DNA of 64,000 nt, taken from the IMG/VR virus record IMGVR_UViG_3300045988_164636, positions 62,875 through 126,874 of that record; one strand, given 5' to 3'. The DNA comes from a virus. Below, one piece after another: positions 4,089-61,389 of the stretch (position 1 is the first letter of the stretch; each line of letters starts with the position of its first letter). The position numbers were made by a program, and so were the translations under genes. The notes under the pieces were generated by a model. The model saw nothing but the letters and a program-made list of their open reading frames with translations, was not told the DNA's origin and ran no database searches.

Positions 4089-4181
4089 ATGGCAACAATT
4101 AATTTATTAGCTTTAGAGCCTCATAAGGTTAGTAGAGATTTATCTGGGTACATTACCTACATATACGGAGCAGCAAAGACT
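4089..4181 (+). CDS. Sak4-like (AAA_24/RecA-like) ATPase, exon 1 of 2
   Basis: RBS aaaggag, ATG 4089, MATINLL..YIYGAAKT. Reading on hits a stop after 7 codons. Joining to 5248 rebuilds the Walker A GAAKTGKT in frame. Confidence 0.7.
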
Positions 4182-5247
4182 AGAGAGTTACTGGTCTCTT
4201 GATATGTAAATATCAAGCAAACATTGTAGTAAAAACGGGAACCCTAAACCAGTTTGGCAAGGGAATCCGAACGGAAGTTAATTTGTAATAAAGTTAACAC
4301 GTGCAACGCGTGGTTTTGAAACTAAATAAGGAGTGTATATCGCATATGATAACCCAAGAAAATAAATTATTAATAGTAAAAATGTATAATGAAGGAAGTT
4401 CGTTATCAGAATTATCAAGATTATTTGCTATTGATACAACAGTTATAAAATCAATTTTAAATGAATATAATATTCATATAAGGACAAGAGGAGAACAAAC
4501 TCGTCTGACAAATATGAAGAGAAGTAAATCAGTTGATAATTTTTATTTCTCTAATATAAATACAATAAATAAGGCGTGGATGTTAGGCTTTCTTGCCGCA
4601 GATGGTAGTATAGCAAAAGAAAGAAATACAATTTCAATTGCATTAAGTACAGTAGATAGAGAAATTTTAGAAAAAATAAAAGAAGAAATTAAAATAGAAA
4701 AAACTATTTATGATAGTGAAACTAATAATGGATTTTTAGTATCAAAATTAGAATGGTCAAGCTTACAACAGAAAACAGATCTAAGTAAATATGATATAGT
4801 AAATAATAAAACTTATTTACCAATTCATTTGCCACATTTTGATAATGATAACCTAACGTTAGCTTATATTTTAGGGTACTTTGATGGAGATGGCTCTATT
4901 ACTATCAATAATAATAAGTATTTAAGATTTAGGATCTGCTCTCATAGAAATGAAATTCTGCAAGATATAGCTAATTTTATTGAAAAAAAATATGGAGCGA
5001 CATATTCTTTAAATCAAGACAAAAGAAAATTATATGAATTAAGTATTTCTACTACTTATGCTATACCTTTATTAAATGACTGTTATAATTTAAATTCTAT
5101 CCATCTTGATAGAAAATATCAAAAATATTTAGAATATAAAAGAAACCAAGAGACTACAACATCCATGTAATTGGGATGAGAGGGTACGCTGAACTTATAG
5201 GAAACTATAAGAAGTAAAGGATAAAAAGCCTTTACGATAACAAATTG
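4182..5247 (+). mobile_element. group I intron A (1066 nt) carrying a LAGLIDADG homing endonuclease
   Basis: 5' splice site after U (agacu|) pairs with ggucu 4193-4197, giving a U-G wobble. Last nucleotide is G (..gauaacaaauug|). aaacgggaaccc and cugaacuuauagg..hairpin elements resemble T4 td-type introns. Confidence 0.75.
4346..5170 (+). CDS. LAGLIDADG homing endonuclease (double-motif) with N-terminal HTH
   Basis: LGFLAADGSI and LGYFDGDGSI motifs. RBS aaggag upstream of ATG 4346. The ORF-track start 4301 reads through intron RNA. Confidence 0.85.
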   Translation: MITQENKLLIVKMYNEGSSLSELSRLFAIDTTVIKSILNEYNIHIRTRGEQTRLTNMKRSKSVDNFYFSNINTINKAWMLGFLAADGSIAKERNTISIALSTVDREILEKIKEEIKIEKTIYDSETNNGFLVSKLEWSSLQQKTDLSKYDIVNNKTYLPIHLPHFDNDNLTLAYILGYFDGDGSITINNNKYLRFRICSHRNEILQDIANFIEKKYGATYSLNQDKRKLYELSISTTYAIPLLNDCYNLNSIHLDRKYQKYLEYKRNQETTTSM

Positions 5248-6141
5248 GGTAAGACCACTCTCGCCACAAGAGCGGGAGGATCACTTCTTCTTGCCTTTGA
5301 ACGTGGATATAATGCTTTACCCGGAGTTATTGCTCAGGATATTACATCATGGACAGAAATGAGAGCAGTATTAAGAGAACTAAAAAAGCCAGAAGTAAGA
5401 GAAAAGTTCAAGAGTGTAATAGTAGATACTGTAGATATTGCGGGAAGTTTTTGTGAAAAATACATTTGTACACAGAATGATGTTAATAAGATAGGTGATA
5501 TCCCTTATGGTGGAGGTTGGAACCTAATGAAGAAGGAATTTGAAGATGTCTTCCGTACGATCACTCAGCTGGGTTTTGCCGTTTTCTTTATCTCACATGA
5601 TAAAGACAAGGTTTTTAAGACAGAGGAAGGTTTTGAGTATAATCAAGTTATTCCTTCTTGTCCCACTTCTTTCAATAATATTGCAAAGGATATGAGTGAT
5701 ATTTATGCTTATGCTAAGAAATATCAGGAAAATGGAGTAGCTAAGGTAAAGTTAATTCTTCGTTCAAAAGATAATAGCGTAGATACCGGTTGCCGCTTCA
5801 AATATATTGAACCAGAAATTCCAATGAGTTATGAAGCTCTTGTTGATGCTTTAAATAAAGCAATTGACGAAGAAGCAAAAGAATATGACAATGAATTTGT
5901 TACTGATGAAAGAAATGTTGATGTGGTAAAGAAAGAATTAAATTATGATGAATTAATCAAAGAATTTAATTCTATTACAGCAGAATTAATGAATAAAGAT
6001 GCTGAAACATTCGGTCCTAGAATTGTTTATATTGTTGAAAAATATTTAGGTAAGGGAAAGAAAGTTGCAGAATCTTCAATAGCACAGGTCGAATTAATTG
6101 ATTTAATAGTTAGTGAAATTAAAGATGACCTCTTAAAGTAA
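5248..6141 (+). CDS. Sak4-like ATPase, exon 2 of 2
   Basis: Begins GKTTLATRAGG (rest of the P-loop). VIVDTVD is Walker-B-like. Has no start codon or RBS of its own. Confidence 0.75.
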   Translation, partial: GKTTLATRAGGSLLLAFERGYNALPGVIAQDITSWTEMRAVLRELKKPEVREKFKSVIVDTVDIAGSFCEKYICTQNDVNKIGDIPYGGGWNLMKKEFEDVFRTITQLGFAVFFISHDKDKVFKTEEGFEYNQVIPSCPTSFNNIAKDMSDIYAYAKKYQENGVAKVKLILRSKDNSVDTGCRFKYIEPEIPMSYEALVDALNKAIDEEAKEYDNEFVTDERNVDVVKKELNYDELIKEFNSITAELMNKDAETFGPRIVYIVEKYLGKGKKVAESSIAQVELIDLIVSEIKDDLLK

Positions 6142-6149
6142 AAATATAG

Positions 6150-6182
6150 GGGGAGTTATGAAATATTAACTTCCCTTTATTT
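6150..6182 (+). terminator. probable rho-independent terminator
   Basis: 8-bp stem ggggagtt (6150-6157) / aacttccc (6168-6175) with one G-T wobble, followed by T-rich tttatttaattt. Confidence 0.4.
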
Positions 6183-6203
6183 AATTTAAGAAAGGAGAAA
6201 TAA

Positions 6204-6686
6204 ATGGCTCACGCTGTAAAATGTGTTTATTGCGGAGAAATTTTTGATAGAGATAGAGAAATATGTGTAGAAGTATCTCCAAGAAGATACGCTCACGCCA
6301 CTTGCGATAAACAAGGAATTGAAGATTTAAAAGAACTTGAAGAATATATAAAAAAGATATTTTGTGAAACCACAGTAAATGCGAAGATAAAGAAACAGAT
6401 AAATGATTTTAGAAAAGATTATGGGTATACTTATAGTGGTATATTAAAATGTTTAAAATGGTGGTTTGAAATTCAAGGTAATACAATAGATAAAGCAATG
6501 GGCGGAATTGGTATTGTACCTTATATTTATAAAGAAGTAGAAAAATACTATTATTCTATTTATATTGCTCAAGAAAAAAATCAGAATAAAGAATTAAATA
6601 ATCAAGTAATTGAAGTAGTAGTATCTCCTCCCGCAAGAGATGAGAAAAAAAGATTATTTAATATTGAGGTGGAAGATAGTGACTAA
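6204..6686 (+). CDS. zinc-ribbon protein, possible replication initiation / helicase-loading factor
   Basis: N-terminal C-x2-C ...H-x3-C (CVYCGE..HATC). Overlaps the DnaB start. Function is inferred from position only. Confidence 0.35.
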   Translation: MAHAVKCVYCGEIFDRDREICVEVSPRRYAHATCDKQGIEDLKELEEYIKKIFCETTVNAKIKKQINDFRKDYGYTYSGILKCLKWWFEIQGNTIDKAMGGIGIVPYIYKEVEKYYYSIYIAQEKNQNKELNNQVIEVVVSPPARDEKKRLFNIEVEDSD

Positions 6687-13104: not shown

Positions 13105-13887
13105 ATGACTTATATGGGAAGTAAAAGAAAATATTGTAAATATATTGTTCCAATTATTCAGAAATATATTGATGAACATAATATTACGGTTTTTGCTGAT
13201 GTCTTTTGTGGAGGAGCAAATTTAACAGATAAAATTCAATGTTAAAAAGTAATTGGTAATGATTTATCTCCAACTTTAATTGCTTTACATCAAACTGCAC
13301 AGAAAGACTTTTCTAAAATTCCAACGGATGGAAGTAGAGAATATTGGGATAAAGCATATACTGAATACAAAAAAATTAAATCTGCTATGGATAAGGGAGA
13401 AGAATATCAGCCAGAAATGCCATTGTTTGAAATAGGTGCAATTGAATGGTATGCAAGCTTTTCTAATGGCGGATTTCCACGAGGTTATGCTAAAAATACT
13501 CAAACTCGTAATTATTATCAAGAAGGTTGGCGGAATCACAAAAAACAGCTTGAAAATCCTTTGTATAAAAATATTAATTTTATACAAGGTAACTATAAAG
13601 ATATTTTATCTAATTTAGATAGCATTGACCTTAGTCATACACTTTTCTATTGTGACAGCCCTTATAAAGGAACAAAAAATCCTAAATTTAATCATGAAGA
13701 ATATTATAATTGGTTAAGAGAAACAAGTAAATATGTTCCAATTTTTATTAGCGAACAGATAATGCCAGAAGACTTTTCTATTCTTTGGGAAAAAGAAGCA
13801 AAAAGAACAGCTGGAAAAGATAATAATTTTAAAGCTTATGAAAGACTTTATTTTATAGATAATAGAAAGGATATTAATAATGGATAA
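13105..13887 (+). pseudogene. dam: Dam-family N6-adenine DNA methyltransferase with one in-frame TAA (13243-13245)
   Basis: MTYMGSKRK..DVFCGGANL (motif I) then TAA, then the same frame continues ..VIGNDL..DSPY (motif IV). The stop occupies a single residue position relative to T4 Dam as I recall it. Confidence 0.75.
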
Positions 13888-19147: not shown

Positions 19148-19354
19148 ATGATTTTATATTCAACAGGTTGTCCTAAATGTAATGTGTTAAAAAAGAAAAT
19201 GGCGGCAGTTGGGATCAACTATACTGAGATCAATGATCCCGCCGCAATAAAAGAAAAAGGAATTGTATTTGTTCCTGTTCTTGAAGTCAATGATAAACTC
19301 TACAACTTCAAAGAAGCTGTAGATTATATAAATAATTTAAATAAGGGTGATTAA
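19148..19354 (+). CDS. NrdH/glutaredoxin-like redoxin
   Basis: 68 aa. CPKC active-site motif at residues 8-11. Immediately upstream of nrdD. Confidence 0.7.
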   Translation: MILYSTGCPKCNVLKKKMAAVGINYTEINDPAAIKEKGIVFVPVLEVNDKLYNFKEAVDYINNLNKGD

Positions 19355-20645
19355 ATTGAACAAAAAAATTAAATTAAGTAAAAACTTTACTACTGAATTT
19401 AATAAACTTACAGAAGAATTAGGAGAAGAATTTGAATTAATAAATGGTTTTCATGAAACACAGTTAAATGGAACTGATTTTATTGATAATTTTACCGCAG
19501 ACAACAAACCTGTTGCGGACACTACGATTGATGCTAATGCTTCTGTAACAACTAAAGACATTCAGTCTTTATTAAAAGAAAAAGATAAATCTGAAAATAA
19601 GTTGCTTGCTTTTAATAAAATATTTTATGAATTACAGAAGGAATATGGAATAAAAATTGCTAGAGAGTGGCTGGCTATGGAAATGGGTCCATTCTTATAT
19701 ATGCATGATGCACCTACATCTACGTTCTTCAGCTATTGCTTTGCGTACGATTTATCTAGATTAGCAACGGAAGGTCTATTTTTTATTGACAACTACAATA
19801 ACGAGCCTCCTAAACATCTCCAAACATTCTTAGACGACGTCATAGAATATATATCCTACATGTCGAACAGATCATCTGGGGCAGTAGGAATACCCGATAT
19901 TCTTATCTGGATGTTTTACTTCTGGAAGCATGATGTAGAACAGAATTATTATTTAGTATCGCCAGAATATTACTTAAAACAAGCTTTTCAAAAATTAATT
20001 TATAGATTAAATCAAAAGTTCTATAGAGATCAAACTCAAACAGTATTTTCAAATATGAGTATTTTTGACAGTCTTTATCTTGAAGCTTTATTTGGCGGAA
20101 GAGAATATCCTGATGGTACATTTGTTATCGATTATCTTGATGATATTATGAAAGTTCAGAAAATGTTTATGGACACAGTATCAGAAATTAGAAGCCAGAA
20201 TCTATTCACATATCCAGTCTTGACGTTTTCTTTAATCTACCGTAACGGTCATTTCGAAGATGAAGAGTTCGCTAGGTGGGCTAGCAATCATAACCGCAAG
20301 TGGAATGATTCAAATTTCTTTATTAGCGAAAATCCCGGAGCTTTATCCAATTGTTGCCGGCTCATTTCAGACACTACACAATTAGATCCATTTATTAATT
20401 CAATAGGTGGAACAGCTTTATCAGTTGGTTCTGTAAAAGTTTCAACAATTAATCTTGAAGCTATTGCGTTTGAATATCCTAATAATGAAGATAAATTTAT
20501 TGAAAAATTAAATAGAGTGCAATATATTGATATGTGTGCTTTAGACAGGGTAAGACATATTATTCAAAGAAACATAGAAAAGAAACTTCTTCCTAACTTT
20601 ATTGAAGGCGGGGTTGAAATGGATAAACTATTTAATACAGTAGGT
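19347..20645 (+). CDS. nrdD: anaerobic ribonucleotide reductase NrdD, exon 1 of 3
   Basis: Large class III RNR-like ORF. Reading on past ..LFNTVG gives a stop 3 codons later. A TTG at 19356 with RBS aagggtga is an alternative start. Confidence 0.75.
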
Positions 20646-21934
20646 TCAATCTAAAGAGCCTTATATTACTTAACCAATTTAAAATATTGGGGTCACAAGG
20701 GTGGCTAACGGGGAAAGCTAAGTTAAAAATATGCCAATCCCGTGGGAGGTTATTAAAAATGAATAGACATAATCATAAGAAAAAAGATATTTATATTATA
20801 AAAAATGATATTAACAATAAGGTTTATATAGGACAAACTGTTAACCCTAAACAAAGATGGGAACAATATTGCTCTTTAGTAAAACATAAACCGAATACCC
20901 AAGTTATTACTAAAGCAATGAAAAAATATGGTATTGAACATTTTACTATGTCAATCTTAGAAAATGATGTTGTAAATTATGATGAGAGGGAAAAATATTG
21001 GATACAAAAATATAATAGTCTTGTTCCAAATGGCTATAATGTAGCTATCGGTGGAGATGGAATAGGAAGTGGAGTTAATAATCCAATAGCAAAAGTAAAA
21101 AGTGAAGATGTTTTAATGGAATTAATTGATGAAATAATTCAAAATGTTTTGCCTTTTAAAATTTTAGCAAAAAAATATGATTTATCTGAGGGACAAATTT
21201 CAGAAATTAATAGGGGAAAGGCATATTATAATTCAGAATTAAGCTATCCTCTGCGACAATCAAGATACACAGAAGAAAAAATTAAACAATTAACATATTC
21301 TTTAAAATATGAACTTGATAAAAGTTTAAAACAAATAGCGAAAGAATATGAGATTGATTTATCTTATCTTAATGACATCAACCAAGGCAGAGTTTGGTAT
21401 AGGAGCTATATAAATTACCCTATAAGATTAGGAAAAATGAAAAAAGCTGAAATTATTCATCCTCAAATAAAAGAATTATTAAAAAACTCAACTCTCTCTC
21501 AAAAAGAAATCGCAAAAAAATTCAATATAAGTCAAATGGTGGTTAGTGAAATTAATCAAGGGAAAAAAGGATATGATAAAAACATTGATTATCCTATTAG
21601 AAAAAATTATCAAAAGGAAAGAAAAGAAACTACTTTATCTCCAGACATAATTGATGAAATTTGCAATATCATATTAAATACCAATCTTTCATTAAAAGAA
21701 ATTTCAAAAAAATACGAAGTTTCATATGCTACTATTCAGAATATAAATAGTGGAAAAGTAATAAAATATCGCAATGAAAAAAAATATAAATATCCTTTAA
21801 GAGATAATAGAAAATAACTGCCTGTATCGACTATTCGTGGATAACGAAGTAGGTAAAATACCAAAAGAGTAATAGCATTAACAAGGGTTAGTGTTAAAAG
21901 ATAGTCAGTACCATTAGAAATAATGGATAATATG
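20646..21934 (+). mobile_element. group I intron B (1289 nt) carrying a GIY-YIG homing endonuclease
   Basis: aggu| pairs with gccu 12 nt downstream (U-G at the splice site). td-like uaacggggaa..caaucccgug, aucgacuauucg and gauagucag elements. Ends ..ggauaauaug|. Confidence 0.7.
20759..21817 (+). CDS. GIY-YIG homing endonuclease with four tandem HTH-like modules
   Basis: IYIIKN..VYIGQT..R..NGYN. RBS gggagg before ATG 20759. Four repeats of ..EINxGK..YP(L/I)R. Confidence 0.85.
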   Translation: MNRHNHKKKDIYIIKNDINNKVYIGQTVNPKQRWEQYCSLVKHKPNTQVITKAMKKYGIEHFTMSILENDVVNYDEREKYWIQKYNSLVPNGYNVAIGGDGIGSGVNNPIAKVKSEDVLMELIDEIIQNVLPFKILAKKYDLSEGQISEINRGKAYYNSELSYPLRQSRYTEEKIKQLTYSLKYELDKSLKQIAKEYEIDLSYLNDINQGRVWYRSYINYPIRLGKMKKAEIIHPQIKELLKNSTLSQKEIAKKFNISQMVVSEINQGKKGYDKNIDYPIRKNYQKERKETTLSPDIIDEICNIILNTNLSLKEISKKYEVSYATIQNINSGKVIKYRNEKKYKYPLRDNRK

Positions 21935-22114
21935 TTTTTAGGTTTATATGAAGTAATGGATATTTATGGGTATATTAATGAAGATGAATTTGGCTATAAG
22001 AGTTATTCAGATAAAGGTATAGCCTTTGCTCAAAAAATATTTGACGCATTAAATAAAAATAAAGAGGTTTTCTGCGCAGACCGAGATTATAAGATAAACC
22101 TCGAATCCGTCCCT
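21935..22114 (+). CDS. nrdD: NrdD, exon 2 of 3
   Basis: Joins as ..LFNTVG|FLGLYEV.. and ends ..INLESVP|. Has no RBS or start codon of its own; the track ATG 21923 lies in the intron tail. Confidence 0.7.
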
Positions 22115-23329
22115 AAAAAATCTGGGGCTAAATAAATTAAAACTTATTTAGAAAATTCTCTCTAATTGACTTGGAACGCCCCATCGGGGTGGACAGGGCG
22201 GAAGGAGTTTTTCCACCGTGAACGACTAAATGAGAGAACACCTGAAAAAGGTGATGCGATAGTCTGAGCTCTACCATATAAAGAAAGTAGAGAATGAAAT
22301 TTAACGATTTCATCGCCATACAATAAATACCACTCATTTGAAGAGTATAAAAAGAAAGGAAAACTATGAAAAATATTATTAAAAATGCCAGTGGCAAGCC
22401 CATTGGAACGGTTGAATTGACAGCAAACACAATAAAAATAATGAATGATACTAAACCCGTTTTAGAAATTCAAAATTCTAACTTAGCTCAACAAATTATA
22501 AATAAAGATAATAGCCCAGAAATTTTAAAGATACTATATGATAATTATTTTTTATCTGCCGGAGAAATTGCAGCTTTATATGAAGTTTGTTATTCTAATA
22601 TGAACAAACAACTTAAATCAGTTAGTTTAGAAACAAGTGCTAAACAGGGACGAAGAAATAGATCCTACGGGAAACCTCAGTCCGAAGAATGCTTAAGAAA
22701 AAAATCTGAAACAATGAAAAGAAAAGTTGCTAATGGCGAATATACTCCTCCAAATTATGAAAGAACGCCTGAAATAAAAGAAAAGATTTCTCGTGGACTA
22801 AAAGAATATTATAAAAATCATCCTCAAGATCCAACTCCTCATATAAATAATTGGAAAAAAGGAGTTTATGATAATGTAGATTTTCATATAAGTATTGGTG
22901 GGAAAATGTTTTCTATAAAAAATCAAAAAACATATAATTTTAGAAGTTTATTAGAATTATATTATATGTTGTTACTCGAAGATTCAACAGAAGTAGAATT
23001 TTATGAATATGAGCCTATACATATTAATTGTGAAAATGGACATATATATACACCAGATATTCTAATTAATAATACAACTTTAATAGAATTAAAGTCATAC
23101 AAATATATTCATAGTAAAGACGAAATTTTAAATTCCTTTAATTATAAAAAAGAACAGGCTGAAAAATATTGTAAAAATACAGAAATGCAATATAAAGTAG
23201 TATTTGATATTGATATTGATTTTGATTCTTCTCGATATAAAAGAGAACTAAAAAATCATCCTGAAATTATTGAAAAATATCACATTATTTTCAATCAGCC
23301 AGAACGTATGGTCATAAAGTAACAGATTG
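22115..23329 (+). mobile_element. group I intron C (1215 nt) carrying a TnsA-like PD-(D/E)XK endonuclease
   Basis: cccu| pairs with gggg 9 nt downstream. The core (gugaacgacuaaaug, gcgauagucugagc) lies 5' of the ORF. Ends ..aguaacagauug|, like intron A. Confidence 0.75.
22366..23322 (+). CDS. intron-encoded endonuclease: NUMOD3-like repeats plus C-terminal TnsA-N/PD-(D/E)XK domain
   Basis: GRRNRSYGKPQSEE and TPEIKEKISRGLK look NUMOD3-like. SLLE..YTPDILI..LIELK matches the E..PD..ExK nuclease pattern. Confidence 0.55.
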   Translation: MKNIIKNASGKPIGTVELTANTIKIMNDTKPVLEIQNSNLAQQIINKDNSPEILKILYDNYFLSAGEIAALYEVCYSNMNKQLKSVSLETSAKQGRRNRSYGKPQSEECLRKKSETMKRKVANGEYTPPNYERTPEIKEKISRGLKEYYKNHPQDPTPHINNWKKGVYDNVDFHISIGGKMFSIKNQKTYNFRSLLELYYMLLLEDSTEVEFYEYEPIHINCENGHIYTPDILINNTTLIELKSYKYIHSKDEILNSFNYKKEQAEKYCKNTEMQYKVVFDIDIDFDSSRYKRELKNHPEIIEKYHIIFNQPERMVIK

Positions 23330-23800
23330 GGAGAGTCGGCTGCAGTCAAACTCGCGGCAAAAGATAGATTATACTATGCTCATCCTAAATGTCACGAAAT
23401 TTTAAGTAATCAGTGGATACCATTAACAGAAAAATGTACAATAGAGGAAAAAGCAAGATTATCAGGATTATTTGATAAACGTTGCGGAGGCGGAGTTATT
23501 GCACATATTAACATAGAAAGCGAGTTCCCAACAGAAGAATCAGCTTGGAATATGTTAAATTATTTAGCTTCACATAATGTTATTTATTTTGCTTTCAATA
23601 GCAGAATAAATGAGTGTGCAAATCATCATGGCTTTGTTGGAACTAAAATTTGTCCAGAGTGCGGAGGAGAGGTTATAGATACTTATCAGAGAATCGTGGG
23701 TTATTTAGTACCTACAAGATCTTATTCTGCCGCCCGCAAAAAAGAATTCGGTAAAAGGCAATGGTATAATATAGGAAATATGATAGATACGATAGGTTAA
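23330..23800 (+). CDS. nrdD: NrdD, exon 3 of 3 (glycyl-radical domain)
   Basis: Junction ESVP|GESAAVKLAAKD restores a conserved NrdD block. Zn site C..H..CPECGG. Glycyl radical motif RIVGYL. Confidence 0.85.
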   Translation, partial: GESAAVKLAAKDRLYYAHPKCHEILSNQWIPLTEKCTIEEKARLSGLFDKRCGGGVIAHINIESEFPTEESAWNMLNYLASHNVIYFAFNSRINECANHHGFVGTKICPECGGEVIDTYQRIVGYLVPTRSYSAARKKEFGKRQWYNIGNMIDTIG

Positions 23801-27705: not shown

Positions 27706-28049
27706 TTAAGAATTTACGCCACAGTTACATCCGCAACCATTATATCCATAATTCGCATAAGGACTCTGAACAATATATGCGGGGATTGCAGCCTTCTGTC
27801 CTAACTGACTTACAAGATAATTGTTTTGAGCTTCTTGAGATGCAGCAAACTTAAGACTCTGATTTTCTGCTGTAAGTGTAGCAATTTTATCCTGAGTTAA
27901 GAAGTCTAAGATAGAACGAGTATTTGCATCTTGGTTAGTTGTAATAGCTGTTGTTGCATCAGCTATAGCCTGTCTTGTCTGACATGATTGTTCTGCTAAT
28001 CTGTAATTAAGATCTGATGCCTGAGTAGCTGATTGATAACGTAAATCAC
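27706..28049 (-). CDS. Cys-rich single-pass membrane protein, exon 2 of 2
   Basis: Open frame with no start codon: ..DLRYQSATQASDLNYRLAEQSC..ENQSLKFAASQEAQNNYLVSQL..GYNGCGCNCGVNS, stop at 27706-27708. Confidence 0.6.
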
Positions 28050-29142
28050 CGTTTTGTTACCCTAGAGATTCTTTATTCTCTAGTTCTTATAGTTTCCTAT
28101 AAGTTCAGACTATATCTTCACCCTTTTGTTAAAGGGGTTCGGCACTCGTGTTGGTATTATTGTCTGTCATGACTCAACCATTAGTCGTTGAACCTTCCAA
28201 TTACTTTTATTGACTTTCATTGGCTTGGCTGCTGATTGGCATATTCACAAGTATGACCCATACAAATTTTTCTTCCTTCTCGTAAACTTTTATTTAATGT
28301 CACTGGTTTTAATCCTACTGCTAATGCGGCTTCTGTCCCTGAGTTATAATAAATTCCATCAACAATAACAGGGTGTCCTTGTCTAGATGGTTTCTTTAAA
28401 CCGTCTTTATATCTACATTCTTTTCCGTCCGGTGATTTTCCCAATTGACACCAACTTGAAATTGTTGTCTGAGAAACCCCATAATAAGTAGCTGCATCAA
28501 TAGCCCCTTCAAATTCTTTACCCTCTATAATGACTGCTCTTTTATGAGCTTTTCCATTCTTCTGGGCAACTTCTTTATTATACATAGGATTCTTTTCTCT
28601 CATGCGCTGTCGTTGTTCTTCTGATTTCATCGGATTATTTTTTGACCAATATTCTCTTAATTCTGGTGTCCAAACAACTTCTAAACCACCATGACCAGCT
28701 TCAGCCAGATTACATTTACACTGATTTTGTTTTTTATATTCATCTGTAATCTTTTTTTCTTCTATAAAAGCCTCTTGTTCAGTAAGATTATCTGATATAA
28801 TTCTAACTTCTGTGTTATGCGTAGCAAAATAATTAAGAAATTCTTGATTTCTATGTCTAGTATCTGAATATCTTTTTCCGCATCCTTTTCCTACATAAAA
28901 CACTTCTCCAGTATCTAAATCATACCATTCATACACATAAAATTTACATAATTCTTCTTGCATAATTTTAAACTCCTCTATATTATATTTTATCAGATAC
29001 CGTATATCTGATTTCATATATCTTAGAAAAATCTAAAAATATAATTATTTTGTATTGACCATTTTTTGTGAACTTAGCTTTCCAGCAATTCACCGAATTA
29101 TTTTTCTAATAATTACTTATTAGGCTGCCATGATTTTGTTAT
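28050..29142 (-). mobile_element. group I intron D (1093 nt) carrying a GIY-YIG homing endonuclease
   Basis: gcugcu| pairs with ggcagc 13 nt downstream (U-G wobble). Core gguucaacgacuaaugg and gaagauauagucugaac. Ends ..gguaacaaaacg|. Has a 25-nt block identical to intron A. Confidence 0.75.
28217..28963 (-). CDS. GIY-YIG homing endonuclease
   Basis: FYVYEWYD..EVFYVGKGCGKRY. RBS gaggag before ATG 28963. C-terminal HTH-like GVSQTTISSW. The track start 29017 reads through intron RNA. Confidence 0.85.
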   Translation of the reverse strand: MQEELCKFYVYEWYDLDTGEVFYVGKGCGKRYSDTRHRNQEFLNYFATHNTEVRIISDNLTEQEAFIEEKKITDEYKKQNQCKCNLAEAGHGGLEVVWTPELREYWSKNNPMKSEEQRQRMREKNPMYNKEVAQKNGKAHKRAVIIEGKEFEGAIDAATYYGVSQTTISSWCQLGKSPDGKECRYKDGLKKPSRQGHPVIVDGIYYNSGTEAALAVGLKPVTLNKSLREGRKICMGHTCEYANQQPSQ

Positions 29143-29596
29143 AGCAGCAATTCGACATCTGTGTTCCTAAGCTAGTTAACTGAGCACCAATAGCATTAGT
29201 ATTTTGCATAGCTTCTACTGTATTATTGTTGATTGCAGCAGTTACACCCGCCTGAGCTGTTTGAATTGAGTTCTGTATAGTATTAAAACCATTTAACATT
29301 CCAGTGTTCATTGCATAGAAGCCATCACAAATACCGCTATTTACAGTATCCAGTTTTCTTTCGATGTTAGCAAAGTCAGATGTTAGTATATAACCATCTG
29401 TAATGCCCGAACCTGTAGATGAACCTCCGAAAAGTCCACCATTATTCCATCCACCTGCAAAGCAGAAAAGGAACAAGATAATAATCCACCAGGCAGAATT
29501 TCCACCCATAAATCCATCGTCATAATTTCTGTTGTTGCCACCGGTTGCAGCAGCAATGTCGGCTAAAGAATAGCCACTATTTGTTGTGTTGAACAT
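29143..29596 (-). CDS. Cys-rich single-pass membrane protein, exon 1 of 2
   Basis: MFNTTNSG.., G/N-rich flanks around a TM helix WWIIILFLFCFAGGW, then N/Q/T-rich helical repeats. The spliced junction gives ..QMSNCC-C-DLRY.. in frame (798 nt in total). Confidence 0.6.
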
Positions 29597-48492: not shown

Positions 48493-49533
48493 TTAAACTT
48501 CTGAAACTTTTACTTTTACAGCAATCTTTTTCTTTGTAACTGATGTACCTTTAGTATATTTTATTTCAATATAATATGTACCAGTTGCATTCCAATTTAG
48601 ACCTGTTCCATTTATAACTTCTACAGTTACACCTTTAGGCTGAACATAAGAAGATTTTAATGCAACAGATTCAATTTGACCATCTTTTGCAACATTAACT
48701 ACATCTTCGACCGCATTATATGTACCTGTTGTAAATTCAAGATCAGCAACCTTTACTGGACTTACAACATAGCTATCTTCAATATCAGCTATATTATCAT
48801 CTTCAAGATTATCATTAATATCAATTACTTCGTCATCCATATGGCTCATAACCGATTTCTGATCTGGCTTAGGAGCCTTAGTTTCATCAACAATTTGAAT
48901 TACACAAAGAACTTTCTTAGTCTTATTGAAATAAGTATAGCCAGGGAAAGCGTCCATTGTGAAGGTAAATGTACTTGGATCTCCAGTAGGAGCCATTGTA
49001 AATGTAAAGTTAGACTGGATTTTAACATTAGGAATAGTTAAGTAAGCAGGCATATCTTTACCATTTTCTTGCTTTCTAAAATAAGTCTGACCTTCAACAT
49101 AATAGTAGCCAGCAAAATTAGCTGCATCAATCTGTACTTCTTGAACAGTAGCTTCATTCTTAATAATATAGCAATCTACCATAACTGTCTTGCCATAAGC
49201 TGTTTTATCTGTAACGGTTAAGGTATTATTGGTAACAGAACCAACATTAAAAATTTTACCTGTTAAAGATCCATCTCCTTCTGTTTCAAGAACAAATAAA
49301 GGAGCATCCGCACAAATTACATCGCCTTCATCTAAAGCGTCTGAAATATCAATAGTACCATTCTTTGCATCTATAACCTGTAAAACAGTTGTATGAATAT
49401 GTACTTTATTTTCTTCACTCTTGGTATTAATTAATCCTGCACCAGTAAGTATTGCCATACCAATGGGTGAGATTAAGGCATCTTCAAGAGTAAAAGTTAA
49501 TACTTTTTCACCTCGATTGTATTCCACGTATCT
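48493..49533 (-). CDS. major tail protein, exon 2 of 2 (with C-terminal Ig-like domain)
   Basis: Frame is open upstream of the track GTG start and there is no RBS. The C-terminal about 90 aa look Big_2/Ig-like. The 5' boundary is set by homology to the intron D 3' tail (guauuuuaacg|) and is good to about 12 nt. Confidence 0.6.
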   Translation of the reverse strand, partial: RYVEYNRGEKVLTFTLEDALISPIGMAILTGAGLINTKSEENKVHIHTTVLQVIDAKNGTIDISDALDEGDVICADAPLFVLETEGDGSLTGKIFNVGSVTNNTLTVTDKTAYGKTVMVDCYIIKNEATVQEVQIDAANFAGYYYVEGQTYFRKQENGKDMPAYLTIPNVKIQSNFTFTMAPTGDPSTFTFTMDAFPGYTYFNKTKKVLCVIQIVDETKAPKPDQKSVMSHMDDEVIDINDNLEDDNIADIEDSYVVSPVKVADLEFTTGTYNAVEDVVNVAKDGQIESVALKSSYVQPKGVTVEVINGTGLNWNATGTYYIEIKYTKGTSVTKKKIAVKVKVSEV

Positions 49534-50482
49534 CGTTAAAATACGCGCGCTCCCGATAAGAGCTGCTGAACCTTTTTTTATACGTTCAGATTAGACTATA
49601 TCTTCATCCTGTATGTCACAGGAGTCTCGCACTTCGACTTTACTTAAAGCCTACACCCGCAGAGGGTTAGTCGTTGAACCTTTTCTGTCTTAAACAATTT
49701 TCTGATTGAGTTATTTTTTGTAAATTATCTAAACAATTATTACGAGGATTTGCATCTATATGATCTATAACAAATCCTTCTAAATCATAATCATTATGAA
49801 ATACACAATAAACCAATCTATGAATATAATAATGTTTTTTATCTGCAAAAGAAATTCTTGAATACTTTTGATTTTTATCTATTTTAAGTAATCTATTTGT
49901 TCTATTATTTCTAATTCTACCCATTGAAGAAACTGAATAATTTGGATGATCTGGAATAATCATCCATTCTTCTCCTTCTAAATTAGAAACAAAATATTTA
50001 GGTTTATATTCTCTTTTTGTTTTCTTTTGCTGATTATGATAATAAGTATTTTGCTTGGCGGAAACCCATTCTAAATTAGAAACATCATTGTTTAATTTAT
50101 TTTCATCTTTATGATGTACATAAGGATAGTTATTAGGGTTATTTAAAAATAATTGAGCTACTAATCTATGAGCATACACCATTTTAGATAATTTTCTATT
50201 ATTAGCTTTTGAAATATTATCTCCAATAGCTAAAGCATAAATTTGATAACCTACATTATCAATCTTTCCTTTTAAAAATCTTTTTGTTTTTAAACTATAA
50301 ACTTTTCCGTCACTATATACTATGTATCCTTTATATTCTACAGAGCTTGGCTGCTGATTGTCTTCTTTTATTTCCATTTAAAATCTCTCCTTTATATTTA
50401 AATCTTATAAAAAAAGAGTTTCCAGCAATTCACGAGAGTTTTCTTAATTTTATTGCTAAAATTCGTGAGCCAGTGATTATCA
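49534..50482 (-). mobile_element. group I intron E (about 949 nt) carrying a tandem HNH homing endonuclease
   Basis: gugggau| can pair with ggcucac 11 nt downstream. Shares gugaauugcuggaaa, gguucaacgacuaa and gaagauauagucu with intron D. Confidence 0.7.
49667..50377 (-). CDS. HNH homing endonuclease with two HNH_3-like modules and a NUMOD4-like motif
   Basis: VHHKDENKLNNDVSNLEWVSAKQN and IDHIDANPRNNCLDNLQKITQSEN. EEWMIIPDHPNYSVSSMGRIRN is NUMOD4-like. RBS aaaggagag. Confidence 0.85.
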   Translation of the reverse strand: MEIKEDNQQPSSVEYKGYIVYSDGKVYSLKTKRFLKGKIDNVGYQIYALAIGDNISKANNRKLSKMVYAHRLVAQLFLNNPNNYPYVHHKDENKLNNDVSNLEWVSAKQNTYYHNQQKKTKREYKPKYFVSNLEGEEWMIIPDHPNYSVSSMGRIRNNRTNRLLKIDKNQKYSRISFADKKHYYIHRLVYCVFHNDYDLEGFVIDHIDANPRNNCLDNLQKITQSENCLRQKRFND

Positions 50483-50677
50483 ATCCCACGCAATTAAACG
50501 AGCATTACCACGACCACCAGTAGCATATACAGTAGTTGCTGAACCTTCAAGAGTAGAAGTCTTTGCACTATCAATAGCTAAAACAGTCTGACCGGGAACG
50601 AAAAGCATGCTACCTATATAAACTGAACTTTTAGCTTTAAAAGTTATATCAGTAGCTTCACGAATACCAAATTTCAT
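50483..50677 (-). CDS. major tail protein, exon 1 of 2
   Basis: RBS aaaggaggaaaatacct before ATG. MKFGIREATDITFK..GGRGNARLIAWD, then a stop immediately after the proposed splice site. Confidence 0.6.
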
Positions 50678-56017: not shown

Positions 56018-56041
56018 AATTGTTTCCTCCTAATTATTTAT

Positions 56042-57310: not shown

Positions 57311-57325
57311 AGTAATCTATCTCCT

Positions 57326-58846: not shown

Positions 58847-58870
58847 TTATCTTCTCTCCTCTCTTTATAA

Positions 58871-58899: not shown

Positions 58900-58908
58900 A
58901 AGAAGGCG

Positions 58909-59265
58909 TCAATACCCTGCAGCACTCATAATCATATCATAATTTAATCTTCCTTCATCTGTATAAGGAATTTCCACAAGAGGAATATTATGTTTTTTAC
59001 AATATTCTCTTTTTAAAGCATCATTAAATTGCTGCTTTCGCAATCCCGGCAATCCGCCGAATTTAGACTTGGGAAGATAGTGTTGAACGCCTTGATATTC
59101 AATTAAAAAATCTATGTCACCTTCATCATCAAAAACACAAAAGTCAAATCTTAAAGGTATTCCTTTAGGACTTAACAAATCTGGAAAACTATATTCTTCT
59201 TGAAAATTAAGTCCTGCGGCAGTTAAAATATCAAATATTTTTATTTCTCCTCTGCTAGCTTTCAT
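58909..59265 (-). CDS. free-standing PD-(D/E)XK (DUF559/Vsr-like) endonuclease, putative homing endonuclease
   Basis: 118 aa. RFDFCVFDDEGDIDFLIEYQGVQH matches the D..(I/V)E(Y/F)xGxQH nuclease pattern. Inserted between terL and the portal gene. Confidence 0.6.
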   Translation of the reverse strand: MKASRGEIKIFDILTAAGLNFQEEYSFPDLLSPKGIPLRFDFCVFDDEGDIDFLIEYQGVQHYLPKSKFGGLPGLRKQQFNDALKREYCKKHNIPLVEIPYTDEGRLNYDMIMSAAGY

Positions 59266-59355
59266 GACTTATTCTCCTTTCATAATAATAGCATTCCCCT
59301 ATCTTTATATTATAAAAATAGGGGAACATATTTAAAACTTTTTTGTCCACAAATT

Positions 59356-60753
59356 TTAAGTAAAAAACATAAATGAAGACATATCACGGCCACGTCTCTT
59401 CCGCTTCCTATCTTCTTCTTGTTTAATATAATATAAACCATAAATAAAAGACGAAAATTTATCTTTTAAGATTTTTTTATTTGCTTGTTTAAGAATAATA
59501 TTTACGCCTTCATTTTCTTGCACTAAATTTAAAATTTGTTCTCTTAAAATTGAGGTAGCAACAAAAGGCTTAAGATATTCAGCTCTTTGTTCTACTGACA
59601 TATTTTGTCCTACTTTTGTTTCCATTAATTTAGTTTTTGCAAACCTATCATCTATTAAAAATTTTACTTTTCCACTACTGATTTGAGTCTGCATATAACC
59701 ATATGCTTCTGTATTAATTGGGGCATTTGCTTTAATAAGATACATAGCATTTTGCACAGTATCTGGAGTTTTATATTTTTTATATTCGCCCTTGTCATCG
59801 TTATCTACCCCAAAAGGCGGAAGGGTGTCTCCAGTATCTGGATCAATTTGAGATTTTATCATGAAGTCTACAAGTCCAACACCAAGACCATTCGCATCCA
59901 CAACCAGCCGCCTTGCCTTATATTTATAAAATAATTGTTTTAATTGAATTGCTTGTGTTTCAAAATCTTCAGATTCATAAGTATAAATATAAACTACGCT
60001 TTTTAATGAAGCTCCTTGCGGTTGTGGAGTAACTTTTATAATTGTTGCTTCTGTTGTACAGCCTAAACGTCCAACATCGACACCTATAACATAATAACCT
60101 TGTTTACTAATTCTTCCGCTTGCCGTTGCTTCAGAAGCAAGAAGAACTCTATGTTTATCAAATCTTTCCGCAGAAAAGAAAGCATTAAGGGCATCTCCGC
60201 CCCATTTTGAACGATATTCTCTATCAAAAGAACTTTCATCAAAAGTACCTTGCAATTTTAATTGTGTAACAAAATCATCCGCAATAAGACCTTCCGCAAC
60301 AGGTGTTTCATAAGTACCGCCCATAACAGATACAAGGTGCGGATCTATAATACTCTGAATTAGTAATTCAATGAGTTTATCGAATGCGAATGTGTTCTTA
60401 TACCCAGCTGTAGTGATATAGGTCTGGCTTTTGTTAATTATTTCTTCTTTATGGCGGGTTCCGTCGGGAAGCAATCTATCAACGTTTGTTGTAGGTATTA
60501 CTATTTCATTGAGAGCCTTTTGATCAATAAGTACACATTCCTCCATGAGTCCAGCTGTACGACGTTGTCCTCTAGAACTTTCTTTTGCAGGAAGAATATT
60601 TATTTTGCTACCATTCTTAAATTGATACTCAACAAAGTCTGTTGTCTTTCTTGACTTACCTCTTTCCCAGTCTATTTCATGATATAATGCAGGAATTAAT
60701 TTACAAATTTCTTCTACCTTTGCGATCGTAATTGAAGCGGCTTGTTCTTTCAG
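59356..60753 (-). CDS. terL: terminase large subunit, exon 2 of 2
   Basis: Walker B LMEECVLID and a RuvC/RNaseH-like nuclease half (VIGVDVGR..). The track ATG 60765 lies inside an intron hairpin. The 3' splice site is at cag| or cagcug| (60753 or 60750). Confidence 0.7.
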   Translation of the reverse strand: MKEQAASITIAKVEEICKLIPALYHEIDWERGKSRKTTDFVEYQFKNGSKINILPAKESSRGQRRTAGLMEECVLIDQKALNEIVIPTTNVDRLLPDGTRHKEEIINKSQTYITTAGYKNTFAFDKLIELLIQSIIDPHLVSVMGGTYETPVAEGLIADDFVTQLKLQGTFDESSFDREYRSKWGGDALNAFFSAERFDKHRVLLASEATASGRISKQGYYVIGVDVGRLGCTTEATIIKVTPQPQGASLKSVVYIYTYESEDFETQAIQLKQLFYKYKARRLVVDANGLGVGLVDFMIKSQIDPDTGDTLPPFGVDNDDKGEYKKYKTPDTVQNAMYLIKANAPINTEAYGYMQTQISSGKVKFLIDDRFAKTKLMETKVGQNMSVEQRAEYLKPFVATSILREQILNLVQENEGVNIILKQANKKILKDKFSSFIYGLYYIKQEEDRKRKRRGRDMSSFMFFT

Positions 60754-61056
60754 CTGTATTATCATAAAGGCTTTTTATCCTTTATTTCTTATATTTTATT
60801 TTATATAAGCTTAGCATATATTTTCACCCTCGTTATTACGTTAGGTTTGATTATTGGCGAGATAATCTCAAAGAATACTTTATATTCTTGTGCTGCGGTC
60901 TCGTGGTAGGATTATATCTTTTCACCTACTATGCGTTGCCCCTGACTTATCTTAGATAAGCCTTCGGTTCGGATTAGCATCTCAGCCTTCCCGCTTAATT
61001 CCGCAGTAATCATATATTTAATTTCTTAAATATACGGCAATATTAATTATAAATTT
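60754..61056 (-). mobile_element. group I intron F (about 303 nt), no ORF
   Basis: cggu| pairs with gccg 18 nt downstream. Contains ccuaacguaauaacgaggg and gaaaagauauaauccuac core-like strings. A 20-nt hairpin is identical to one in intron A. Confidence 0.7.
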
Positions 61057-61389
61057 ACCGCCAGTAGTGATGAACAACTCACATCCCGGGTACAAGATAG
61101 CTTTTAACATTAAAGCCATGATAGAAAGAAAAGATTTAGAGAAAGCACGCGGATATGTAGCATATATATACCTATATCGCATAACCTGCCGCAAGAAAAC
61201 TCTTTGATAAGTATAAAACTTAAAATTACAATCTTTACCTTTTATAAAATCAATAAATAAATCAGGATATTCTCTAAAAAAAGAAAATAATTTGCGGAGA
61301 TTATCTAGCTGTTCTCGTACTCTTTCTTCTGACATACCTTGTTTTTGTACAGAGTAGTTTGAGTCTCCTAATAGCGTGGCTAAGCTCAT
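61057..61389 (-). CDS. terL: terminase large subunit, exon 1 of 2
   Basis: ..YATYPRAFSKSFLSIMA (Walker-A-like) ..CELFITTGG|. The unspliced reading ends 12 codons later. The join gives ITTGG-(L)KEQAASI in frame. Confidence 0.7.

What the first reader, a model, noticed from the sequence alone, without database searches (positions are those of the whole stretch)
4089..61389. Six related group I-type introns in one 64-kb phage window
Five genes (Sak4-like ATPase, nrdD twice, a Cys-rich membrane-protein gene, the major tail protein, terL) are broken into pieces that rejoin in frame across conserved motifs. At every proposed 5' splice site the exon ends in U, and that U can form a U-G wobble with a G-initiated guide 9-18 nt downstream. 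The pairings are A agacu/ggucu, B aggu/gccu, C cccu/gggg, D gcugcu/ggcagc, E gugggau/ggcucac and F cggu/gccg. Every intron ends in G. The introns share core strings (aacgacua, gauauagucuga, acgggga..cccgug) that I recall from T4 td-type IA2 introns. By my coordinates they total 5915 nt, about 9 percent of the window. They sit in both replication and virion genes, which is an unusually heavy intron load.
Basis: partly seen in the sequence, partly recalled or inferred. Interest (0 to 1): 0.8.

Follow-up and report, generated by a model that had tools for sequence, protein, structure and literature searches.

The report
Six mobile group I introns
This stretch of a gut phage genome really does carry six self-splicing-type (group I) introns in five essential genes, five of them missing from a 95%-identical sister phage, which makes it a densely invaded but otherwise familiar kind of phage.

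Summary
The finding holds. Six insertions (about 5.93 kb, 9.3% of the window) interrupt Sak4-like ATPase, nrdD (twice), a Cys-rich membrane-protein gene, a virion structural (probable tail) gene and terL.

A 94-97% identical IMG/VR phage lacks five of them, which fixes their boundaries to the base:
- A: 4182-5247
- B: 20646-21934
- C: 22115-23329
- D: 29142-28050
- F: 61056-60751

Joining the exons restores gapless matches to intact homologs. All six show the group I helix order (P1, P2, P3, P7, P8, P9), a U.G at the 5' splice site, an early in-frame stop, and a terminal G in at least five. Five carry homing-endonuclease genes.

The Rfam group I model finds five of six at the right place and strand, but none reaches its curated cut-off (best 46.9 vs 50; A gets none). 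A and F belong to a widespread phage intron family with strong covariation.

Intron E's exact junction cannot be settled from sequence. The "shared core strings" occur in only some of the introns.

Six introns in one phage has precedent (SIOphi, Twort), so these are new members of a known kind.

The parts
4089..4181 (+). Sak4-like ATPase (AAA_24) exon 1, ending ...YGAAKT
   Evidence: The junction restores the Walker A motif GAAKT|GKTT and aligns without gaps to Enterococcus phage Sak4.
4182..5247 (+). Intron A (1066 nt), A/F-type group I intron. P1 is AGACU/GGUCU and P10 is GGUAA/UUACU. The ORF lies between P7 and P3'.
   Evidence: It is an exact indel against the intron-less relative L096. 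Helices were verified. The ORF-deleted mini-A fits the covarying family structure. It has no RF00028 hit.
4346..5170 (+). LAGLIDADG homing-endonuclease ORF of intron A (it could start at GTG 4301)
   Evidence: Pfam LAGLIDADG_3, E=2.2e-15. phrog_4645 endonuclease, E=3.6e-40.
5248..6141 (+). Sak4-like ATPase exon 2
19347..20645 (+). nrdD (class III ribonucleotide reductase) exon 1
20646..21934 (+). Intron B (1289 nt), td-like group I intron. P1 is AGGU/GCCU, P10 is 10 bp, P4 is ACGGGG/UCCCGU, P7 is GACUA/UAGUC. P7.1 and P7.2 are present.
   Evidence: It is an exact indel against L176. Helices were verified. RF00028 on the 3' half gives 12.7 bits, E=0.31. Its P4-P5 region is about 86% identical to a stretch that lies in an E. 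coli Vequintavirus nrdD CDS annotated as joined from two pieces.
20759..21817 (+). GIY-YIG homing-endonuclease ORF of intron B
   Evidence: Pfam GIY-YIG, E=2.1e-12. phrog_7168, E=1.2e-37. The identical protein, with the same neighbouring genes, is found in at least 7 independent contigs.
21935..22114 (+). nrdD exon 2 (60 codons)
22115..23329 (+). Intron C (1215 nt). A compact core lies at 22115-22365 (P1 CCCU/GGGG, P2, P3 UCUCUC/GAGAGA, P7 GACUA/UAGUC, P8, P9, P9.1). The ORF lies 3' of the core and ends 7 nt before the 3' splice site.
   Evidence: It is an exact indel against L176. RF00028 gives 18.2 bits, E=0.015, over the full model. The MFE fold recovers P1, P2, P3, P8, P9 and P9.1 with z=-3.2. 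Helices were verified.
22366..23322 (+). Intron C ORF, probably a PD-(D/E)xK-type endonuclease (weak assignment)
   Evidence: Pfam Tn7_TnsA-like_N E=2e-4 and Phage_endo_I E=2.9e-4, both below their cut-offs. phrog_15427 'endonuclease' E=1.4e-5.
23330..23800 (+). nrdD exon 3 (carries the glycyl-radical C-terminus). The junction reads ESVP|GESAAVKLA.
29143..29596 (-). Cys-rich membrane-protein gene (phrog_16490, function unknown) exon 1, ending in codon phase 1
28050..29142 (-). Intron D (1093 nt), td-like group I intron. P1 is GCUGCU/GGCAGC and P10 is 7 bp. R is AAGGUUCAACGACUAA and S is GAAGAUAUAGUCU.
   Evidence: RF00028 gives 46.9 bits, E=8.5e-9, at 28086-28306. The indel length of 1093 nt against L266 matches exactly. 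The NCC|C junction matches homologs. Helices were verified.
28217..29017 (-). Homing-endonuclease ORF of intron D (GIY-YIG / I-TevI-like)
   Evidence: phrog_314 homing endonuclease, E=4.5e-16. There is a faint Pfam I-TevI DNA-binding match.
27706..28049 (-). Cys-rich membrane-protein gene exon 2
50483..50677 (-). Virion structural (probable major tail) protein gene exon 1, ending ...LIAWD
   Evidence: phrog_2729 virion structural protein, E=9.3e-51.
49512..50482 (-). Intron E (958-971 nt), td-like group I intron. The 5' splice site is most likely after U50483. The 3' end is unresolved among 49525, 49514, 49513 and 49512.
   Evidence: RF00028 on the 3' half gives 24.2 bits, E=1.8e-4. It shares 14-16-nt core words with D. 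P6 is fully compensated relative to D (UCUGU/ACAGA vs CCAAU/AUUGG). It is present at about 98.5% identity in the relative. The junction conflict is set out.
49667..50377 (-). HNH + NUMOD4 homing-endonuclease ORF of intron E. It starts in the P5 loop, runs through P6 and stops inside P7.
   Evidence: Pfam HNH_3 E=3.6e-18 and NUMOD4 E=2e-9. phrog_59 E=2.5e-56.
48493..49511 (-). Virion structural protein gene exon 2. It begins at or just upstream of GGU GAA AAA (GEK).
61057..61389 (-). terL exon 1, ending ...FITTGG
60751..61056 (-). Intron F (306 nt), an ORF-less A/F-type group I intron. P1 is GCGGU/GCCGU and P7 is GCAUA/UAUGC.
   Evidence: It is an exact indel against L091. RF00028 gives 16.9 bits, E=0.054, starting at the 5' splice site. 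The MFE fold has z=-4.4. An 86.6% identical ribozyme with compensatory changes sits at the same terL codon in L094. Covariation was tested.
59356..60750 (-). terL exon 2, starting KEQAASITIAK

Best explanation
The six insertions are mobile group I introns.

Splicing model. Each is transcribed within its host gene. An in-frame stop 3-39 nt into the intron halts ribosomes. The RNA folds into the group I core: P1 presents the 5' splice site as a U.G wobble, and the P3/P7 pseudoknot, P4-P6, P8 and P9 form the rest. A free guanosine attacks after the U. The released exon then attacks after the intron's terminal G, with P10 aligning the 3' exon. This rejoins the exons in frame.

Spread. Five introns encode homing endonucleases of at least three families: LAGLIDADG, GIY-YIG (two) and HNH. 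The fifth ORF (in C) is probably a PD-(D/E)xK nuclease. During co-infection these enzymes would cut intron-less alleles. Recombinational repair would then copy the intron, together with a short tract of flanking exon, into the cut genome.

Families. The introns fall into two sequence families that have exchanged modules. B, D and E are td-like, with C as an outlier. A and F belong to a family that is also common in Staphylococcus and gut phages.

Shown here: the precise optional insertions, in-frame restoration of the genes, the RNA helices and their covariation, the endonuclease genes, and the co-conversion signature.

Inferred, not shown: actual splicing, guanosine dependence, and endonuclease activity.
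For: 1. Optional, exact insertions. IMGVR_UViG_3300045988_158359 is 94-97% identical on both sides of five sites and lacks exactly 1066, 1289, 1215, 1093 and 306 nt at sites A, B, C, D and F. It shares E.
2. Intact proteins after joining. AAA_24 and NRDD match as single stretches. NrdD aligns end to end with T. maritima NrdD at 1e-134. The junctions YGAAKT|GKTT, NTVG|FLGLYE, ESVP|GESAA, NCC|C and TTGG|KEQAA are gapless against homologs.
3. RNA evidence.
- RF00028 is the top relevant hit at the right strand and position for D (46.9 bits, E=8.5e-9), E (24.2), C (18.2), F (16.9) and B (12.7).
- All named helices are fully complementary and in canonical order.
- Unconstrained MFE folds recover them, with z=-3.2 and -4.4.
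- For the A/F family, 99.3% of cells pair, 22 of 42 pairs change on both sides, and covariation is 0.49 against 0.14 in shuffles (0 of 500 reach it). With partners slid, only 28-44% of cells pair.
4. P10 pairings of 10, 7 and 5 bp pick the same 3' splice sites as the indels for B, D and A.
5. Endonuclease ORFs are present in five introns.
6. Homing signature. Exon divergence is 18.7% within 15 nt of the sites against 4.5% further out (p=5e-9). At four of the five empty sites the last 5'-exon base is not T.
7. Every intron has an in-frame stop 3-39 nt after the 5' splice site.
8. The intron-bearing nrdD allele recurs in at least 7 independent assemblies.
Against: - No RF00028 match reaches the curated gathering score of 50. 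B's hit is not significant (E=0.31), and A's 5' half has none.
- For E, no pair of splice sites satisfies all four of: U at -1, a terminal G, the reading frame, and the Gly that is invariant in 81 of 81 homologs.
- Helices for B-E were chosen by eye before being checked. Their formal covariation was not tested beyond pairwise comparison.
- No RNA data exist for this phage.
Confidence: 0.9

Rival explanations
1. The insertions are real group I introns, but at least one is impaired. E is the main candidate, and A is possible. Such an intron might need a protein cofactor, splice at a non-canonical site, or yield a variant protein: a 4-residue EYNR insertion, or a Gly-to-Cys change, in the structural protein.
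For: - E's junction conflict and the A.G mismatch in its P1.
- A has no RF00028 hit.
- In Bastillevirinae, about half of the tested phage introns spliced only in vivo, and alternative splicing was observed (PMC11878797).
Against: - E is kept with identical junctions in two phages that differ by about 10% across that region. This argues that the gene still works.
- A has every core helix and fits a strongly covarying family.
Confidence: 0.25
2. The genes are 'fractured' by free-standing endonuclease cassettes and are expressed as separate polypeptides that associate, with no RNA splicing.
For: - Mechanical ORF calling gives start codons near some downstream pieces: TTG 5245, ATG 21923, TTG 23327, GTG 49527 and ATG 60765.
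- Split genes of that kind have been described in metagenomes (PMC2677866, listed).
Against: - The breaks cut through motifs that cannot function when split: the Walker A motif (GAAKT|GKT) and one codon in D, which is in phase 1.
- By direct reading, the downstream pieces lack recognisable ribosome-binding sites.
- F has no ORF at all, yet it is a structured 306-nt insert.
- The inserts carry group I cores.
Confidence: 0.03
3. The insertions are something else: inteins, group II introns or assembly chimeras.
For: LAGLIDADG and HNH domains also occur in inteins (established knowledge).
Against: - In-frame stops 3-39 nt after each junction exclude inteins.
- The whole-window Rfam scan at E up to 10 returned no group II match.
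- The same arrangement recurs in independent assemblies.
Confidence: 0.01

Closest known systems
Phage T4 td / nrdB / nrdD (sunY) group I introns with I-TevI/II/III (subgroup IA2)
   Same: - D and E carry the R and S elements of the RF00028 consensus almost verbatim (GGUUCAACGACUA and GAAGAUAUAGUCU).
- B has the ACGGGG..CCCGU P4 stem. That this resembles td's P4 is my recollection, not something tested here.
- P7.1/P7.2-type hairpins are present.
- The targets include nrdD.
- The endonucleases include GIY-YIG types.
- Early in-frame stops are present.
   Different: - There are six introns in 64 kb, against three in T4's 169 kb.
- They also sit in virion and packaging genes and in a recombination ATPase.
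- The endonuclease ORFs sit in different loops: between P7 and P3' in A, in P5 in D, in P6 in E, and 3' of the core in C.
- The host is a Firmicutes-type gut phage.
Bastillevirinae and Twortvirinae introns (SIOphi: 6 introns in pol and terL; Twort orf142 tail tube gene: 3 introns) - PMC11878797
   Same: - Multiple group I introns per genome, including in terL and a tail gene.
- HNH, GIY-YIG and LAGLIDADG endonuclease ORFs in loops.
- RF00028 gives only partial hits when an ORF splits the core.
   Different: - Here the six are spread over five genes rather than stacked in one or two.
- The targets Sak4-like ATPase and the Cys-rich membrane protein do not appear among the four invaded gene families of that survey (DNA polymerase, terL, thymidylate synthase, ribonucleotide-reductase subunits).
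- The lineage is a roughly 120-kb siphovirus-like gut phage, not Herelleviridae.
A/F-type intron family in Staphylococcus phages (e.g. Sextaecvirus PT1-1, tape-measure-like gene) and many IMG/VR contigs
   Same: - The P9.1 hairpin and 3' tail are 90-97% identical (AAAGGAUAAAAAGCCUUUA[CU]GAUAAC...G).
- The P7 variants match (GCAUA/UAUGC or GCGU[GA]/UACGC).
- The P3-P9.1 architecture is the same and covaries.
   Different: - The host genes and phage lineages differ.
- A carries a LAGLIDADG ORF between P7 and P3'.
- L094 carries one in the P1 loop.
- F has none.
Intron in the nrdD gene of E. coli Vequintavirus phages (e.g. AlexBoehm, CDS annotated as joined)
   Same: B's P4-P5-P4' stretch is about 86% identical over 43 nt, and the host gene family (class III reductase) is the same.
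   Different: The NrdD proteins are too divergent for tblastn, so the insertion sites could not be compared. Only a short core segment matches.

Membership tests
Group I intron (Rfam RF00028) | A covariance-model score at or above the curated gathering score (50 bits) | tested here: not met
   There are no hits at the gathering threshold. Sub-threshold hits are D 46.9, E 24.2, C 18.2, F 16.9 and B 12.7 bits, and A has none. ORFs that split the core are a known cause of partial hits (PMC11878797).
Group I intron (Rfam RF00028) | P1 helix with a U.G wobble at the 5' splice site, formed with an internal guide sequence | tested here: met
   All six have it, with 4-8 bp and the guide G 9-18 nt downstream. 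E has one A.G mismatch. Four of the five intron-less alleles lack the T.
Group I intron (Rfam RF00028) | Terminal guanosine (omega-G) at the 3' splice site | tested here: inconclusive
   It is met for A, B, C, D and F, at boundaries fixed by the empty sites. For E, the options that obey the G rule give a 4-residue insertion or a Gly-to-Cys change. The option that gives a perfect protein has A as the last base.
Group I intron (Rfam RF00028) | Conserved core: the P3/P7 pseudoknot, P4-P6, P8 and P9 in fixed order, with conserved R/S (P7) elements | tested here: met
   The helix table was verified by script. Covariation for the A/F type is 99.3% paired, with 22 of 42 pairs changed on both sides and 0 of 500 shuffles reaching the score. 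P7 covaries across the introns: GACUA/UAGUC, GCAUA/UAUGC and GCGUG/UACGC. For C, the P4-P6 assignment is not settled.
Group I intron (Rfam RF00028) | Guanosine-dependent self-splicing that joins the exons | not testable with these tools
   This needs RT-PCR or RNA-seq and in vitro splicing.
Subgroup IA2 (T4 td type) | Extra P7.1/P7.2 hairpins between P7 and P3', and a match to subgroup-specific models (GISSD) | tested here: inconclusive
   Hairpins in the P7.1/P7.2 position are present in B, D, E and F. In A the ORF sits there, and C has none. No subgroup models were available. IA2 is itself reported to be heterogeneous (PMC11878797).
Mobile (homing) intron | An intron-encoded homing endonuclease | tested here: met
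   A has LAGLIDADG, B GIY-YIG, D phrog_314 homing endonuclease and E HNH+NUMOD4. C has only a weak endonuclease match, and F has none.
Mobile (homing) intron | Presence/absence polymorphism at an identical site among close relatives, with co-conversion of the flanking exon | tested here: met
   Five of the six are absent from a 94-97% identical phage. That phage carries its own extra nrdD intron at another site. Flank divergence is 18.7% against 4.5%, p=5e-9.

The most novel reading that the evidence does not exclude
Intron E, in the virion structural gene, may splice at a non-canonical junction. Either the last intron base is A rather than G, or the 5' exon ends in A rather than U. This is because the only junctions that recreate the W[ED]-G-EK motif, invariant in 81 of 81 homologs, break one of the two most conserved group I rules. 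Alternatively, E obeys the rules and the phage tolerates a Gly-to-Cys change or a 4-residue insertion at an invariant site of an essential virion protein. A second, related reading is that co-resident introns exchange RNA modules. A and D share a 25-nt identical J7/9-P9 segment, A and F share P9.1, and D carries two alternative 5' strands for P3.
Probability: 0.12. Interest if true: 0.6.

Novelty: new member of a known kind. Interest (0 to 1): 0.4.

Why it matters
Group I introns in phages are textbook, so the kind is not new. Four things are useful here.

1. **A natural before-and-after pair.** Two gut phages about 95% identical differ by five introns in one direction and one in the other, and they show measurable co-conversion tracts. 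That is a ready-made system for studying intron invasion and homing during co-infection.
2. **Annotation.** Automatic pipelines call these genes as fragments (one search shows nrdD called as three separate pieces). Counts of 'hypothetical' small ORFs in gut phage genomes are therefore inflated.
3. **Targets.** The list of intron targets extends to a Sak4-like recombination ATPase and an uncharacterised Cys-rich membrane protein.
4. **Detection.** The curated Rfam threshold misses all six, which gives a feel for how under-counted such introns are in viromes.

Tried and rejected
- **Rfam at the gathering threshold** found nothing. The permissive whole-window scan found only D, so I rescanned small sub-regions. 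A's 5' half still gave nothing.
- **Megablast of the window against sequenced phages** found no close relative, only a 64-nt intron piece shared with Staphylococcus phages.
- **Phass-1's two-piece match** to the structural protein looked like an intron, but its CDS is continuous. I read the extra length as an inserted stretch in the protein rather than an intron.
- **EF1's terL intron** is at a different codon from F, so it cannot serve as a comparator for F.
- **The relative's copy of E** has the same junction sequence, so it could not resolve E's boundary. The relative's E-type nrdD intron obeys the U and G rules but did not help either.
- **The split-looking D12 methyltransferase** (13105-13887) was checked as a possible seventh intron. 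It has a single in-frame TAA and no insertion.
- **The PDB sequence search** with the structural protein found nothing, so the 'major tail protein' label rests on gene order and on PHROG 'virion structural protein' only.
- **tblastn of this NrdD against the Vequintavirus nrdD locus** gave no hit, so the insertion sites could not be compared.
- **P6 was left out of the covariation count.** MAFFT does not keep that length-variable hairpin in register. P8 is informative only for F against L094.

Full report
**What was checked first.** With permissive settings, the whole-window scan finds one match. This is RF00028 at 28086-28306 on the minus strand, 46.9 bits against a gathering score of 50, E=8.5e-9, inside the proposed intron D. 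The strict covariance-model test is therefore narrowly failed, and the interpretation had to be tested in other ways.

**The genes really are split and rejoin.** ORF listings show the pieces and the intervening endonuclease-like ORFs. Joining the pieces in frame gives a 328-aa protein that matches Pfam AAA_24 and a 652-aa protein that matches NRDD, each as one stretch across the junctions.
- NrdD aligns from residue 8 to 643 with Thermotoga maritima NrdD (E=1e-134).
- The Sak4-like junction rebuilds a Walker A motif (YGAAKT|GKTT). It is gapless against the Sak4-like protein of Enterococcus phage VRE9_4.
- Spliced TerL, the Cys-rich membrane protein and the virion structural protein each hit other phages as single uninterrupted tblastn pieces.
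- Residue-level alignment selects NCC|C for D and TTGG|KEQAAS for F.

**The decisive comparison.** IMG/VR holds a 121-kb contig, IMGVR_UViG_3300045988_158359, that is 94-97% identical to the window on both sides of five sites. It lacks exactly the following:

| Site | Window coordinates | Length |
|---|---|---|
| A | 4182-5247 | 1066 nt |
| B | 20646-21934 | 1289 nt |
| C | 22115-23329 | 1215 nt |
| D | 29142-28050 | 1093 nt |
| F | 61056-60751 | 306 nt |

B ends 9 nt further than implied, and F 3 nt further.
- The same contig shares intron E at about 98.5% identity.
- It also carries a 1025-nt HNH-containing, D/E-type intron of its own at a third nrdD site, window 20215|20216.
- Exon sequence next to the five sites is 18.7% divergent within 15 nt, against 4.5% further away (p=5e-9).
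- At four of the five empty sites the last 5'-exon base is not T, whereas every intron-bearing allele has T. This is what homing with co-conversion, together with the U.G requirement of P1, predicts.
- The intron-bearing nrdD arrangement recurs in at least seven independent assemblies, so it is not an assembly artefact.

**The RNA.** Rescanning small sub-regions gave the following RF00028 results:

| Intron | Bits | E-value | Notes |
|---|---|---|---|
| D | 46.9 | 8.5e-9 | whole-window scan |
| E (3' half) | 24.2 | 1.8e-4 | 5'-truncated |
| C | 18.2 | 0.015 | full model |
| F | 16.9 | 0.054 | starts at the 5' splice site |
| B (3' half) | 12.7 | 0.31 | not significant |
| A (5' half) | none | - | - |

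- A script confirmed that every helix I assigned is fully complementary and lies in the canonical order: P1, P10, P2, P3, P4-P6 where clear, P7, P7.1/7.2, P8, P9 and P9.1. The one exception is an A.G mismatch in E's P1.
- P10 pairings of 10 bp (B), 7 bp (D) and 5 bp (A) pick the same 3' splice sites as the empty-site comparison.
- Unconstrained folding of C's core and of F recovers the same hairpins, with z=-3.2 and -4.4.
- P7 covaries across the six: GACUA/UAGUC in B-E, GCAUA/UAUGC in F and GCGUG/UACGC in A.
- P6 is fully compensated between D and E.

**A and F, the two with the weakest Rfam support.**
- A's last 64 nt are 90-95% identical to sequences in several Staphylococcus phages. In phage PT1-1 this sequence ends an unannotated intron in a tape-measure-like gene.
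- Contig L094 has an 86.6% identical copy of F's ribozyme at exactly the same terL codon, with a LAGLIDADG ORF in the P1 loop. Its differences from F are compensatory in P2, P3, P6, P7.1, P8 and P9.
- The shared P9.1 16-mer occurs in at least 120 IMG/VR contigs, mostly followed by the same GAUAAC...G tail.
- I aligned F, an ORF-deleted mini-A and six homologs with MAFFT and scored F's structure on the alignment. It gives 99.3% paired cells, 22 of 42 pairs changed on both sides, and covariation of 0.49 against 0.14 in shuffles (0 of 500 reach it). With partners slid, only 28-44% of cells pair.

**How the six are related.** Long exact words are shared at equivalent structural positions: A-D 25 nt, A-F 20 nt, D-E 16, 16, 15 and 14 nt, and B-D 13 and 12 nt. 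There are 55 shared 11-mers, against a mean of 21 for random segments. C shares only the P7 core with the others.

**The endonucleases.**
- A: LAGLIDADG.
- B: GIY-YIG.
- D: GIY-YIG-type homing endonuclease (phrog_314).
- E: HNH with NUMOD4.
- C: only weak PD-(D/E)xK-like matches.
- F: no ORF.

All six introns have an in-frame stop 3-39 nt past the 5' splice site. The review PMC3984707 notes this feature for many bacterial and phage group I introns.

**What remains unresolved.** For E, all 81 intron-less homologs read W[ED]-G-[ED][KR] with no gap. With the 5' splice site after U50483, the in-frame G-terminated acceptor (49525) inserts EYNR. The pair U50482/G49512 gives Gly-to-Cys. The two junctions that recreate the motif need either a terminal A (49513) or a 5' exon ending in A (50484). 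Sequence alone cannot decide, so this needs RNA data. D also has two possible 5' strands for P3, one before and one at the end of its ORF.

**Comparison with what is known.** Phage group I introns are well documented. More than 100 are known in about 30 genera. SIOphi has six in two genes, and Twort's tail tube gene has three. Partial RF00028 hits are typical when an endonuclease ORF splits the core (PMC11878797; PMC3984707). B's P4-P5 core is about 86% identical to a stretch that lies in a Vequintavirus nrdD CDS annotated as joined from two pieces.

**Verdict.** The observation needs three boundary corrections and one caveat. The finding is a set of new members of a known kind, with a high but not unprecedented load of 9.3% of 64 kb. 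Its most useful feature is the intron-plus and intron-minus pair of near-identical phages.

Noticed in passing
window 13105-13887 (+), stop at 13243-13245: A D12-class N6-adenine DNA methyltransferase gene is interrupted by a single in-frame TAA (...KIQC*KVIGNDLSP...). The reading frame continues unchanged after it. This is a nonsense mutation, a readthrough site or a sequencing error, not an intron.
   Followed up: partly
window 58909-59265 (-): A free-standing 118-aa ORF lies just downstream of terL. It matches homing-endonuclease families (phrog_9084 E=5.8e-28; phrog_559, the family reported inside terL introns of Bastillevirinae) and Pfam DUF2726. It covers only the C-terminal part of those profiles, so it is likely a nuclease remnant. 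At least its terL-proximal end is also present in the relative.
   Followed up: partly
L176 1973-2997 (relative contig), equivalent to window 20215|20216: The intron-poor relative carries its own 1025-nt D/E-type group I intron, with a 278-aa HNH ORF, at a third nrdD site that is empty in the window. This lineage therefore has at least seven intron sites.
   Followed up: yes
L094 521-1500; L095 221-1500; L009 (Enterococcus phage EF1): Related terL genes carry other insertions. L094 has an F-type ribozyme plus a LAGLIDADG ORF at the same codon as F. L095 has a 1280-nt insertion at about terL residue 177|178. EF1 has an insertion near residues 197-228, next to an annotated 'HNH homing endonuclease # Phage intron'.
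   Followed up: partly
Among loci L012-L090, L001 and L005 (5 of the 81 hits): Five homologs of the virion structural gene have an in-frame stop codon at the conserved E/D codon (LIAWEG*KTL). This suggests stop-codon recoding in those phages. Phass-1, a relative, is classified in a 'code 15' clade.
   Followed up: no
window 50393-50423 (-): The ribosome-binding site of intron E's HNH gene (AAAGGAGAG) can pair with CUCUUU in the P5 hairpin. Endonuclease translation may therefore be held down by intron folding.
   Followed up: no
window 29083-29097 and 28239-28256 (-): Intron D has a partial duplicate of the P3/P4 5' strands. GGUGAAUUGCUGGAAAGCUAAGUU lies before the ORF, and CUUGUGAAUAUGCCAAUC lies at its end. 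This gives two alternative P3 pairings, UUCGG/CCGAA and CUUGUG/CACGAG.
   Followed up: partly
window 5189-5213 (+) and 28108-28084 (-): Introns A and D belong to different sequence families but share a 25-nt identical J7/9-P9 segment (CUGAACUUAUAGGAAACUAUAAGAA). This suggests module exchange between co-resident introns.
   Followed up: partly
L010 about 2300-2570 and about 3875-3928 (Staphylococcus phage PT1-1, PP212900): The deposited annotation shows small 'hypothetical' ORFs where an A/F-type group I intron interrupts a tape-measure-like reading frame. A second copy of the 3' module lies 1.3 kb downstream.
   Followed up: partly
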